Shown here: positions 34,802 to 35,736 of the stretch, piece after piece | How the letters are laid out: every line of letters starts with the position of its first letter | Position numbering within the stretch: position 1 is the stretch's first letter | Virus record (IMG/VR): IMGVR_UViG_2563366848_000004 | Reading direction: 5' to 3' (one strand) | Source: a virus | Taxonomy: Duplodnaviria > Heunggongvirae > Uroviricota > Caudoviricetes | DNA: 42,367 nt | The notes under the pieces: generated by a model | Told to the model about the DNA's origin: nothing | The model's database searches: none | The model's input: the letters and a program-made list of their open reading frames with translations, nothing else | Translations under genes and position numbers: made by a program

Positions 34802-35146
34802 GTGAGACATTTACTTTGCACTGTTACCGTGTTCGCGGTGCTTATATCAGCACCCGCTTTTGCGGATCAGCAATGTGGTGATTTTAAAATCCATTGGGCA
34901 GATGATGGCTTAGCCAGAATCAATGGCGCAAAGCCAGAAATGCAAAAAATCACCTTCCTGAAAAACAAAGGCGATTATAACAATATCAAGATGGATTGGC
35001 GTATGGCTACCGATCAGCCTGGAAGATGGGTTGGTCTTGAGTACATCAATCGAAACGGCAAGATAATTCTCAATGCCCAGTGGCTGCAAGCCAGCATGAA
35101 TGCGCCGCGTCAGTATGCAACCTATGATTGTATAAAGGTGAAATGA
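34802..35146 (+). CDS. secreted small protein with signal peptide (moron)
   Basis: GTG start with GAGGTGGGG SD; N-terminus MRHLLCTVTVFAVLISAPAFA is signal-peptide-like; two Cys in the mature part; AT-rich relative to flanking tail genes. Confidence 0.55.
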   Translation: MRHLLCTVTVFAVLISAPAFADQQCGDFKIHWADDGLARINGAKPEMQKITFLKNKGDYNNIKMDWRMATDQPGRWVGLEYINRNGKIILNAQWLQASMNAPRQYATYDCIKVK

Positions 35147-35692
35147 GTGGCAGGTAAGGGACTGTCAACTATTGGCCCTTTGGATCTGGCATCTCTAAAT
35201 GATGATAACTTTGTAATCACCATTGTTTTTCCTCATTCGACGGCAAAAAATTATCCAATGGCTGTAGCCATTGCTGAGCTTTCAGATGTAAATAAAATTG
35301 GTGAGATAGCAGGGAAAAAATTCCATTTAGCGTCCTTTAGTAAAACGCCTGATCAACTATCAAGAGCTGCAAACCTATGTTATCTGGTGTATGGAATTAC
35401 TGGCGTTCAAGCCTTTATTAACGGTGAGTTGGTTGTAAATGTTCAGGAGTTATCATCTTCTCTTGGATGTTATGCTCGATCACTAAAAGCCAACAATCAG
35501 CAGTCTTATTGCGAATGCGTTTCTAACTACCCGGGCAACTACCTTTTACCTTGCCGTTTACTTAGGGGGTGGGAAGGCGGAGTGTCCGATAAATTGCCAT
35601 TTAGTTTGGCTGACCAAATACAAGCATTGGCAGTAAGTAAAGGGTGTAGTTGGTGTCCCAATTTCCACCCAGAAAAGATGAAGCGAATTTAA
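35147..35692 (+). CDS. Cys-rich hypothetical protein (moron, coupled to the upstream secreted protein gene)
   Basis: 181-aa ORF starting at GTG immediately after the upstream stop; no signal peptide; several Cys (CYARS ... CECVSNYPGNYLLPC ... CSWC); AT-rich; followed by a terminator. Confidence 0.5.
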   Translation: MAGKGLSTIGPLDLASLNDDNFVITIVFPHSTAKNYPMAVAIAELSDVNKIGEIAGKKFHLASFSKTPDQLSRAANLCYLVYGITGVQAFINGELVVNVQELSSSLGCYARSLKANNQQSYCECVSNYPGNYLLPCRLLRGWEGGVSDKLPFSLADQIQALAVSKGCSWCPNFHPEKMKRI

Positions 35693-35697
35693 TAACA

Positions 35698-35725
35698 CAA
35701 ACCCGCCGCCGAGCGGGTTTTTTTT
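35698..35725 (+). terminator. rho-independent terminator
   Basis: CCCGC-cgccga-GCGGG followed by TTTTTTTTT. Confidence 0.6.
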
Positions 35726-35736
35726 ATGGGGTTTTT

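What the first reader, a model, noticed from the sequence alone, without database searches (positions are those of the whole stretch)
34802..35727. AT-rich two-gene cassette (secreted 114-aa protein plus Cys-rich 181-aa protein) inserted inside the baseplate gene block
The two genes lie between the hub-like and spike-like baseplate genes and differ in composition from the flanking tail genes. The first has a signal peptide (MRHLLCTVTVFAVLISAPAFA), the second starts at the first gene's stop and has Cys clusters but no signal peptide, and the pair ends with a strong terminator just before the spike gene. This looks like an independently acquired accessory module, possibly a periplasmic effector or inhibitor with a cytoplasmic partner.
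Basis: partly seen in the sequence, partly recalled or inferred. Interest (0 to 1): 0.6.

Follow-up and report, generated by a model that had tools for sequence, protein, structure and literature searches.

The report
Accessory-gene hotspot between phage hub and spike
The two AT-rich genes are real but are not a matched pair: the first is an exported protein that almost every related prophage keeps right after its baseplate hub gene, and the second is one of dozens of swappable cargo genes (in relatives toxin-antitoxin and anti-phage defence genes) in a slot closed by a terminator.

Summary
Window 34802-35146 encodes a 114-aa protein with a signal peptide. Window 35147-35692 encodes a 181-aa Cys-containing cytoplasmic protein. 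A hairpin plus T-run follows at 35699-35725. GC is 0.45 and 0.41 against 0.54-0.57 in hub and spike.

The "two-gene module" reading is only partly right. Of 155 related hub-spike loci, 135 carry a gene-1 homologue directly after the hub, 12 carry another exported protein or lipoprotein there, and 6 distant relatives have hub and spike contiguous. Gene 2 occurs in only 5 of the 155. The slot behind gene 1 holds 58 different gene sets, including Phd/Doc, YafO and a PD-lambda-1/SNIPE-like defence gene.

Distant gene-2 homologues lie immediately downstream of CI-like or Mnt/Arc-like repressors in other phages. A -10-like hexamer inside the hub codons (TATACT, 34682-34687) co-occurs with the terminator in 138/141 loci. 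The phage encodes a Q antiterminator.

Best reading: a moron-type unit and cargo hotspot. Gene 1 is a disulfide-bonded periplasmic beta-barrel, probably acting on the envelope (superinfection exclusion is my leading guess). Gene 2 is a candidate prophage-expressed defence protein. Neither function is demonstrated.

The parts
33725..34789 (+). Baseplate hub gene: the conserved left border of the locus. Its 3' end carries the promoter-like site.
   Evidence: PHROG 196 baseplate hub, 4.7e-82. Pfam E217_GP41 is below its cut-off. The gene order matches Pam3 gp17-gp24.
34659..34687 (+). Promoter-like site inside the hub codons: -35 TTTATA at 34659-34664, a 17-nt spacer, and -10 TATACT at 34682-34687. 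It lies about 115 nt upstream of gene 1.
   Evidence: Consensus scan. The Tyr-Thr codons are TATACT, TACACT or TATAAT in 138/141 loci that have the slot/terminator layout. None of the 6 gene-1-only loci without a terminator has such a hexamer, and the position is not conserved in the 5 hub-spike-contiguous loci. Neighbouring synonymous sites vary freely. This is suggestive only; transcription was not measured.
34802..35146 (+). Gene 1: a 114-aa exported protein (phrog_3443). The mature part is about 93 aa and is predicted to form an 8-stranded beta-barrel with one conserved Cys pair.
34802..34864 (+). Signal peptide of gene 1 (21 aa, AFA|D cleavage motif).
   Evidence: Sequence features. The N-terminal pattern is kept across the family while its sequence varies. 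No signal-peptide predictor was available.
35147..35692 (+). Gene 2: a 181-aa cytoplasmic protein with 4 invariant Cys (phrog_16260). It is the current occupant of the variable cargo slot.
35699..35725 (+). Intrinsic terminator that closes the accessory unit just before the spike ribosome-binding site.
   Evidence: A comparable hairpin plus T-run is present in 143/149 related loci.
35737..36477 (+). Central spike gene (gpV-like N-domain plus Apex motif): the conserved right border.
   Evidence: Pfam PF18352 1.8e-41 and Apex 3.8e-07.
14425..15207 (+). Q-type antiterminator gene of the same prophage. It would allow late transcription to read through the 35699-35725 terminator.
   Evidence: Pfam Antiterm 2.2e-45. 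The read-through itself is inferred from what is known of lambdoid Q.

Best explanation
The region is a moron-type accessory locus at the hub-spike junction of a SEN34-like temperate myovirus that has lambda-like regulation. It has two independent parts.

(1) Gene 1 is a long-resident gene of this phage lineage. It is found only at this position. It encodes a Sec-exported, disulfide-bonded, 8-stranded beta-barrel protein. Its alleles are old, are under purifying selection, and are swapped by recombination between otherwise near-identical tail modules. In some relatives it is fused to, or replaced by, outer-membrane-type lipoproteins.

(2) Behind it lies a cargo slot with very high turnover, occupied here by gene 2.

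A promoter-like -10 element inside the last part of the hub gene and an intrinsic terminator before the spike appear to frame genes 1 and 2 as a transcription unit that can be expressed from the repressed prophage. Q-antiterminated late transcription would read through the terminator.

Inferred functions, not shown: gene 1 acts in the periplasm or at the outer membrane, most likely blocking entry of incoming phages, or blocking re-adsorption of progeny virions to lysed-cell debris. Gene 2 is a cytoplasmic, probably zinc-binding, lysogen-expressed protective protein. It would be a candidate single-gene anti-phage defence.
For: Architecture
- 135/155 loci have a gene-1-domain protein as the first gene after the hub. 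12 more have another exported protein there. 6 distant relatives have hub and spike contiguous.
- In a gene-1-centred scan the hub ended within 80 nt upstream in 80/80 loci.
- In the structurally solved minimal myophage Pam3, hub gp19 and spike gp20 are adjacent genes and the baseplate is complete with six components (PMC9942802).

Export
- The signal peptide and the Cys pair are conserved across the family.
- The 296-aa variants carry a lipobox (LVTGC) and have the gene-1 domain at the C-terminus. The alternative first genes are lipoproteins or signal-peptide proteins.

Allele dynamics
- Among phages with hub at least 93% identical, gene-1 dS is saturated (median above 1.2, often undefined), against 0.23 for the hub and 0.21 for the spike N-domain. 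dN/dS is about 0.1-0.2.

Slot
- 87 protein clusters and 58 architectures occur in 155 loci. There are 18 architectures among 51 close relatives.
- Cargo includes Phd/Doc, YafO, and a PD-lambda-1/SNIPE-like protein at 2.8e-82 (SNIPE mechanism in PMC13190303).

Transcription unit
- The terminator is present in 143/149 loci.
- The -10-like hexamer co-occurs with the terminator in 138/141 loci and in 0/6 terminator-less loci.
- The phage has a Q antiterminator.
- The moron definition and the HK97 gp15 precedent are in PMC3594210.

Gene 2
- Distant homologues lie directly downstream of, and co-oriented with, CI-like repressors (L009, L175) or Mnt/Arc-like repressors (L010, L172-L176).
Against: - No expression data exist. 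The -35 element is weak, and the scan found fewer promoter-like sites than shuffles give.
- The -10 conservation could partly reflect shared ancestry.
- Gene 1 starts within -8 to +12 nt of the hub stop in most loci. In six deep-branching relatives it is packed between hub and spike with no terminator. It may therefore be primarily a late lytic gene rather than a lysogen-expressed one.
- Gene-1 alleles do not co-vary with the tape-measure C-terminus, the plug, the spike C-domain or the fibre. No cognate phage target is indicated.
- The folds give no functional lead.
- Most slot cargo has no known function.
Confidence: 0.6

Rival explanations
1. Genes 1 and 2 are one co-acquired, co-functional two-gene module: a periplasmic effector or inhibitor plus its cytoplasmic partner.
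For: The genes abut (stop TGA, then start GTG) and share low GC and one terminator. The same pair occurs in Serratia and Cronobacter prophages.
Against: The pair is seen in only 5/155 loci. Gene 1 occurs alone or with 57 other cargo sets. Gene 2 is paired with gene-1 alleles as low as 46% identical to the window's, and the window's gene-1 allele occurs with other cargo. Gene-2 relatives occur without gene 1, next to repressors.
Confidence: 0.06
2. Gene 1 is a structural or assembly component of the baseplate or tail tip.
For: Gene 1 shows strict synteny with the hub in 80/80 loci. Its start is consistent with translational coupling to the hub stop. Deep-branching relatives have no terminator. 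It is under purifying selection.
Against: - The signal peptide and a Cys pair typical of periplasmic disulfides are conserved.
- Some variants are lipoproteins.
- Unrelated exported proteins replace it in phages whose hub and spike N-domain are 95-99% identical.
- It is absent where hub and spike are contiguous.
- The Pam3 baseplate is complete without such a protein.
Confidence: 0.07
3. Gene 1 is a dedicated periplasmic inhibitor of the lytic transglycosylase (SLT) domain carried by the tape measure protein of incoming phages. This would make it Spackle-like or PliG/MliC-like.
For: The window's tape measure ends in an SLT domain. Gene 1 is a small periplasmic beta-barrel with a disulfide, as MliC/PliC are (my own knowledge of that family). 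A free form and a lipoprotein-anchored form both exist.
Confidence: 0.08
4. Gene 1 is a lysogenic-conversion factor unrelated to phage exclusion. It could be a ligand-binding calycin/avidin-like periplasmic protein, or an orphan immunity protein against periplasm-acting toxins such as T6SS effectors or colicins.
Against: The family is tiny (56 representatives at 50% identity among 1.84 billion proteins) and is confined to one position in one phage lineage. That is unusual for a general host-benefit gene. Fold scores are modest, with under 10% sequence identity.
Confidence: 0.17

Closest known systems
Morons of lambdoid phages (HK97 gene 15 in the tail operon; lambda lom and bor), as defined by Juhala/Hendrix and reviewed in PMC3594210
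   Same: These are extra genes between conserved late genes. They have deviating GC, their own terminator and probably their own promoter, and they sit in a Q-antiterminated late operon. Their products go to the envelope. HK97 gp15 is a superinfection-exclusion protein.
   Different: Gene 1 is not sporadic. It is fixed at this site in about 90% of the lineage and is never found elsewhere. There is no sequence or fold relation to gp15, Lom or Bor. Expression from the prophage has not been shown.
[quoted passage not shown]
   Same: A fixed site between conserved core genes shows rapid cargo turnover among close relatives. The cargo includes known defence and toxin-antitoxin genes (literature pointer).
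   Different: The phage lineage and the site differ (inside the baseplate block, between hub and spike). The slot is preceded by a conserved exported-protein gene. Most cargo is unannotated, and the cargo sets are small (one to four genes).
Envelope-acting superinfection-exclusion proteins: T4 Spackle, P1 Sim, T5 Llp, phi80/N15 Cor (my own knowledge)
   Same: They are small phage-encoded periplasmic proteins or outer-membrane lipoproteins. Some are encoded next to tail or receptor-binding genes (Llp, Cor).
   Different: No homology was detected. Gene-1 alleles do not co-vary with the fibre or other tail parts. No phenotype is known.
Lysogen-expressed genes placed next to repressors (lambda rexAB after cI; P22 sieA near mnt) (my own knowledge)
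   Same: Distant gene-2 homologues sit directly downstream of, and co-oriented with, CI-like or Mnt/Arc-like repressors.
   Different: There is no homology to Rex or Sie proteins. Gene 2 is soluble and has a 4-Cys motif. In this window it sits in the tail block, not beside the repressor.

Membership tests
Moron (independent transcription unit added between late phage genes) | Extra DNA relative to related phages, lying between genes that are otherwise adjacent | tested here: met
   Hub and spike are contiguous in 6 distant relatives. They are also adjacent genes in Pam3, gp19 and gp20.
Moron (independent transcription unit added between late phage genes) | Base composition differs from the flanking genes | tested here: met
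   GC is 0.446 and 0.414 against 0.540 and 0.572. The dip is systematic across 139 loci.
Moron (independent transcription unit added between late phage genes) | Own terminator | tested here: met
   Hairpin plus T-run at 35699-35725. A comparable site is present in 143/149 loci.
Moron (independent transcription unit added between late phage genes) | Own promoter | tested here: inconclusive
   The -35 is weak and the -10 (TATACT) is good. The -10 hexamer is kept at synonymous sites in 138/141 loci that have a terminator and in 0/6 that lack one. No transcript data exist.
Moron (independent transcription unit added between late phage genes) | Expressed from the repressed prophage | not testable with these tools
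   This needs RNA-seq or a reporter assay in a lysogen.
Prophage accessory/defence hotspot | Fixed site between conserved core genes, with different cargo in close relatives | tested here: met
   18 slot architectures occur among 51 loci with hub at least 93% identical, and 58 among 155 loci.
Prophage accessory/defence hotspot | Cargo includes recognised defence or toxin-antitoxin systems | tested here: met
   Phd/Doc, YafO, and PD-lambda-1/SNIPE-like at 2.8e-82. Most cargo families remain unannotated.
Prophage accessory/defence hotspot | The occupant here (gene 2) confers phage resistance | not testable with these tools
   No PADLOC, Pfam or NCBIfam hit. Only positional evidence exists.
Envelope-acting superinfection-exclusion protein | Located in the periplasm or a membrane | tested here: met
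   Sequence features only: signal peptide, AxA site, invariant Cys pair, lipobox variants. No experimental localisation.
Envelope-acting superinfection-exclusion protein | Blocks DNA entry or adsorption of a superinfecting phage | not testable with these tools
   This needs plating, adsorption and DNA-entry assays.
Periplasmic lysozyme inhibitors (MliC/PliC, PliG, Ivy; T4 Spackle as functional analogue) | Profile or fold match to an inhibitor family | tested here: not met
Periplasmic lysozyme inhibitors (MliC/PliC, PliG, Ivy; T4 Spackle as functional analogue) | Co-occurrence with a cognate tail lysozyme domain | tested here: not met
   19 gene-1 loci have no detectable SLT in the tape measure. 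There is no co-variation with tape-measure C-terminal classes.
Baseplate structural protein | Cytoplasmic protein present in all relatives that share the baseplate | tested here: not met
   Export signals are present. Unrelated proteins replace it while hub and spike N-domain stay 95-99% identical. It is absent in 6 relatives. It is not among the six Pam3 baseplate components.
Avidin/calycin-type 8-stranded beta-barrel | Fold similarity and a ligand-binding pocket | tested here: inconclusive

The most novel reading that the evidence does not exclude
The gene directly after the hub is an "exclusion-type" locus. It would be a modular family of periplasmic and outer-membrane-lipoprotein effectors: the gene-1 barrel plus the unrelated X, Y and Z domains. 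These would be kept as ancient, balanced alleles and shuffled between otherwise identical tail modules, setting which related phages a lysogen (or a lysing cell) excludes. This would be analogous to immunity types, but acting at the envelope.

In addition, gene 2 would found a new single-gene anti-phage defence family that phages place either here or directly behind their maintenance repressors.
Probability: 0.25. Interest if true: 0.7.

Novelty: new member of a known kind. Interest (0 to 1): 0.45.

Why it matters
If this reading is right, the hub-spike junction of a widespread group of Enterobacterales prophages is a compact, easily recognised landing pad for accessory genes. Hub homologues were confirmed at 561 or more sites in IMG/VR and in 78 species genomes. 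The flanks are conserved and the slot ends at a conserved terminator. That makes the site a practical place to mine new defence or toxin-antitoxin genes. Candidates are gene 2 (phrog_16260), a 258-aa plus 130-aa pair found in 15 loci, and several other unannotated families.

The conserved exported protein in front of the slot has old, recombining alleles and lipoprotein variants. It is a testable candidate for a new envelope-level exclusion system in temperate myoviruses.

Tried and rejected
- Family and sequence searches. Pfam, NCBIfam, PADLOC and PDB sequence searches found nothing for either protein. PHROGs returned only "unknown function" families.
- Alternative first-slot proteins. Pfam, PHROGs and PDB gave nothing for the X, Y and Z domain proteins.
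- Fold searches. Gene 1 gave only generic small barrels. It had no significant match in BFVD, the library of predicted viral structures. Gene 2 had no solved relative. The AFDB library was unavailable.
- Exhaustive profile search for gene 1. It found only 56 representatives and no informative fusions beyond the X domain.
- Co-variation of gene-1 alleles with the tape-measure N and C parts, plug, spike C-domain, wedge or fibre. None was seen.
- Link between gene 1 and the SLT domain. Rejected.
- Hub to gene-1 read-through or fusion. Rejected: a second in-frame stop follows the hub stop, and the offsets differ between loci.
- Rfam. Only sub-threshold chance hits on the hairpins.
- Literature. 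There is no proteomics in the SEN34 paper, and no paper mentions these accessions or PHROGs.
- Complex prediction of gene 1 with spike, hub or SLT could not be run.

Full report
**Context**

The window is a complete temperate prophage of about 40 kb. It encodes:
- an integrase at 1-1194;
- RecT and ExoVIII-like recombination genes;
- an HTH repressor at 8285-8671 on the minus strand;
- a replication O protein;
- a lambda-type Q antiterminator at 14425-15207;
- a contractile-tail module.

The finding lies in a block with this gene order:
- tape measure with a C-terminal SLT domain (30732-32813);
- Dit-like tube initiator (32813-33415);
- Pam3-gp18-type plug (33417-33722);
- hub (33725-34789);
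- gene 1;
- gene 2;
- gpV-like spike (35737-36477);
- sheath initiator (36706-37059);
- baseplate J (37060-38259).

This is the gene order of the structurally solved minimal myophage Pam3, gp17 to gp24. In Pam3 the hub (gp19) and spike (gp20) are adjacent genes, and six proteins account for the whole baseplate (PMC9942802). The nearest public record is a prophage of E. coli LR-33 at 99.5% identity. Named relatives are Salmonella phage SEN34 (Brunovirus), Klebsiella phages Mulock and ST405-OXA48phi1.2, and Citrobacter phage Omnitron.

Both ORFs, the adjacency of stop and start, the signal-peptide-like N-terminus of gene 1, the cysteines of gene 2 and the terminator are present as described. GC is 0.446 for gene 1 and 0.414 for gene 2, against 0.540 for the hub and 0.572 for the spike (profile).

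**The two genes are not a unit**

I collected 155 related loci that contain both hub and spike. They came from E. coli genomes, phage records, one genome per species (78 loci) and IMG/VR (80 loci).

What lies directly after the hub:

| First gene after the hub | Loci |
|---|---|
| Protein with the gene-1 domain | 135 |
| Another exported protein | 12 |
| Nothing: hub and spike contiguous (the most distant relatives, hub 33-50% identical) | 6 |
| Unclear | 2 |

- The first gene is always on the same strand as the hub and starts -8 to +23 nt from the hub stop in all but one locus.
- About eight loci contain gene 1 and nothing else.
- A search centred on gene 1 found the hub ending within 80 nt upstream in 80 of 80 loci. 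Gene 1 therefore seems never to occur elsewhere.
- The family is small: 56 representatives at 50% identity among 1.84 billion proteins. All named members are from Enterobacterales.

Gene 2 behaves differently.
- It occurs in 5 of the 155 loci and in six 90%-identity clusters overall.
- In those five loci it is paired with gene-1 alleles that are 100%, 56% and 46% identical to the window's.
- The window's gene-1 allele also occurs with other cargo.

**The slot behind gene 1 is a hotspot**

The hub-spike intervals hold 87 protein clusters, of which 86 are not the first-slot family, arranged in 58 architectures. There are 18 architectures among the 51 loci whose hub is at least 93% identical to the window's. 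Some of the small clusters are spurious ORF calls, so these counts are upper bounds. Recognisable cargo includes:
- Phd/Doc and YafO toxin-antitoxin genes, and other Phd-type antitoxins;
- an Arc-like repressor;
- DUF4236, DUF2335 and a tRNA_anti-like exported protein;
- in three loci, a membrane-anchored T5orf172 nuclease that matches PD-lambda-1 at 2.8e-82.

PD-lambda-1 has since been characterised as SNIPE, a nuclease that cuts phage DNA during injection (PMC13190303). Most cargo has no annotation. One example is a 258-aa plus 130-aa pair in 15 loci (phrog_17809 and phrog_5176).

**Gene 1 is exported and is not structural**

Evidence for export:
- The N-terminal hydrophobic segment, the A-x-A-D motif and two invariant cysteines are kept in all 62 aligned homologues. 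They are also kept in the most distant members, SEN34 and Mulock included.
- Longer variants (288-298 aa) start with a lipobox (for example LVTGC|A) and carry the gene-1 domain at the C-terminus.
- Where gene 1 is replaced, the replacement is again a lipoprotein (240 aa; 374-379 aa fusions) or a signal-peptide protein (154-182 aa). The residue after the lipobox Cys is A, G or S, which by the +2 rule suggests outer-membrane sorting. That step is inference from established knowledge.

Evidence from the predicted structure:
- AlphaFold2 predicts an 8-stranded beta-barrel with pLDDT 85.5.
- Nothing in the viral structure library is significant.

Evidence against a structural role:
- Phages with 95-99% identical hub and spike N-domain carry gene-1 alleles of about 100, 80, 70, 67 or 60% identity, or an unrelated lipoprotein.
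- The Pam3 baseplate needs no such protein.

**Allele dynamics of gene 1**

Among phages whose hub is at least 93% identical, synonymous divergence of gene 1 is saturated (median above 1.2, often undefined). It is 0.23 for the hub and 0.21 for the spike N-domain. dN/dS is about 0.1-0.2. The alleles are therefore old, functional, and exchanged by recombination through the conserved flanks.

They assort independently of the tape-measure N and C parts, the plug, the spike C-domain and the fibre. Co-resident prophages carry different alleles. Examples are five copies in Pantoea stewartii ATCC 8199 at 22-71% pairwise identity, and two prophages in P. dispersa S68 whose hubs are 97% identical but whose gene-1 proteins are 71% identical. 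That fits an exclusion role but is anecdotal.

**Evidence for a transcription unit**

- A hairpin plus T-run lies within 130 nt upstream of the spike start in 143 of 149 loci.
- The consensus scan finds one promoter-like site, inside the hub gene: TTTATA, 17 nt, TATACT at 34659-34687.
- The -10 hexamer coincides with a Tyr-Thr codon pair. In the 141 loci with the slot/terminator layout it reads TATACT (119), TACACT (17) or TATAAT (2, at the cost of a Thr-to-Asn change).
- The six loci where gene 1 is packed between hub and spike with no terminator have TACAAG, ATTACC, TACACG or TACATG.
- In the five hub-spike-contiguous loci the position is not conserved, even at the protein level.
- A second Thr codon three codons downstream uses all four synonymous codons freely.

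This co-occurrence of a -10-like element with the terminator is what a moron would show (definition and HK97 gp15 precedent: PMC3594210). The Q antiterminator explains how late transcription could pass the terminator to reach the spike and wedge genes.

The caveats are real. The -35 is poor. Shared ancestry is not fully controlled. The start of gene 1 abuts or overlaps the hub stop in most loci, so gene 1 is surely also made late.

**Gene 2**

- A profile search found 26 homologues. Four cysteines are invariant: C108, C122, C136 and C170. In a cytoplasmic protein this most simply suggests a metal site, which is inference.
- Genomic position is informative. Homologues at 57-64% identity sit in the same hub-spike slot in Serratia and Cronobacter prophages.
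- Homologues at 20-39% identity lie immediately downstream of, and co-oriented with, a CI-like repressor (Bordetella avium phages, L009; an unnamed phage contig, L175). Others lie downstream of an Mnt/Arc-like repressor facing an arc-ant pair (L010, L172-L176).

All three kinds of position are places where temperate phages keep genes expressed in the lysogen.

**What I conclude and how firmly**

Shown:
- the anatomy;
- the conserved exported first gene;
- the high-turnover slot with some bona fide defence and toxin-antitoxin cargo;
- the conserved terminator;
- the independence of genes 1 and 2.

Suggestive: an internal promoter.

Inferred:
- Gene 1 acts on the envelope, most likely to exclude incoming phage or to protect progeny from lysed-cell debris. 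I put this at about 35-40%.
- Gene 2 is a lysogen-expressed defence or protective protein. I put this at about 40%.

The specific idea that gene 1 inhibits the tape measure's SLT domain is disfavoured.

**Novelty**

Morons in tail operons and cargo hotspots in temperate phages are well known. This particular hotspot, the gene-1 family (phrog_3443) and the gene-2 family (phrog_16260) appear uncharacterised: no paper in the library mentions them. I file the finding as a new member of a known kind, of moderate interest, with a more interesting but unproven reading given under the novel case.

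Noticed in passing
window 36497-36702: A second, smaller insertion lies right after the spike. It has a terminator-like hairpin (AAAGCCCCGGGTGCGCTAACACTTCGGGGCTTTTT, about 36497-36530) and a 45-aa ORF with one transmembrane-like segment (36565-36702). The ORF is present in only 7 of the loci examined. It is 84% identical to SEN34_23 although the hubs are only 61% identical, and it travels with one spike C-terminal type. In size and hydrophobicity it resembles HK97 gp15-type morons.
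   Followed up: partly
window 6839-8242 (- strand): A 467-aa ORF sits in the lowest-GC kilobase of the window (0.327), directly beside the HTH repressor gene (8285-8671, minus strand) and co-oriented with it. It has no Pfam or PADLOC hit. It is a candidate lysogen-expressed defence gene.
   Followed up: partly
window 40078-41124 (- strand): A 348-aa BNR-repeat (sialidase-like) protein (Pfam BNR_2, 4e-70) lies on the opposite strand just after the tail-fibre genes, in a low-GC stretch of 0.385.
   Followed up: no
window 35737-36477 and related loci: The spike is mosaic. Its N-terminal 130 aa stay 96-100% identical among close relatives, whereas the C-terminal part falls into classes of about 29, 43, 90 and 100% identity. 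This suggests frequent exchange of the spike tip.
   Followed up: no
L092:6424-7200 plus the following 123-aa gene; representative L148:7260-7652: A two-gene cargo set found in 15 loci: a 258-aa protein (phrog_17809) followed by a protein of about 130 aa (phrog_5176). The second contains an Rx5H motif (RNEADYH) reminiscent of HEPN domains. Neither has a Pfam or PADLOC hit. It is a possible toxin-antitoxin or defence pair.
   Followed up: partly
L016, L038, L052, L067, L069, L075 (Pantoea stewartii ATCC 8199, NZ_CP046558.1): One genome carries six copies of this tail module. Five of them have gene-1 homologues, all different (22-71% pairwise identity).
   Followed up: partly
L073:4545-5535 (Trabulsiella guamensis): Here the hub-spike interval holds three consecutive small proteins, each with a signal-peptide-like N-terminus and none matching the gene-1 profile.
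   Followed up: no
window 35645-35726 and 36474-36561: Rfam gives sub-threshold hits on the two terminator hairpins: Trp_leader at 26.8 bits (cut-off 41) and rimP leader at 27 bits (cut-off 47). I regard both as chance resemblance of hairpin plus U-run.
   Followed up: yes
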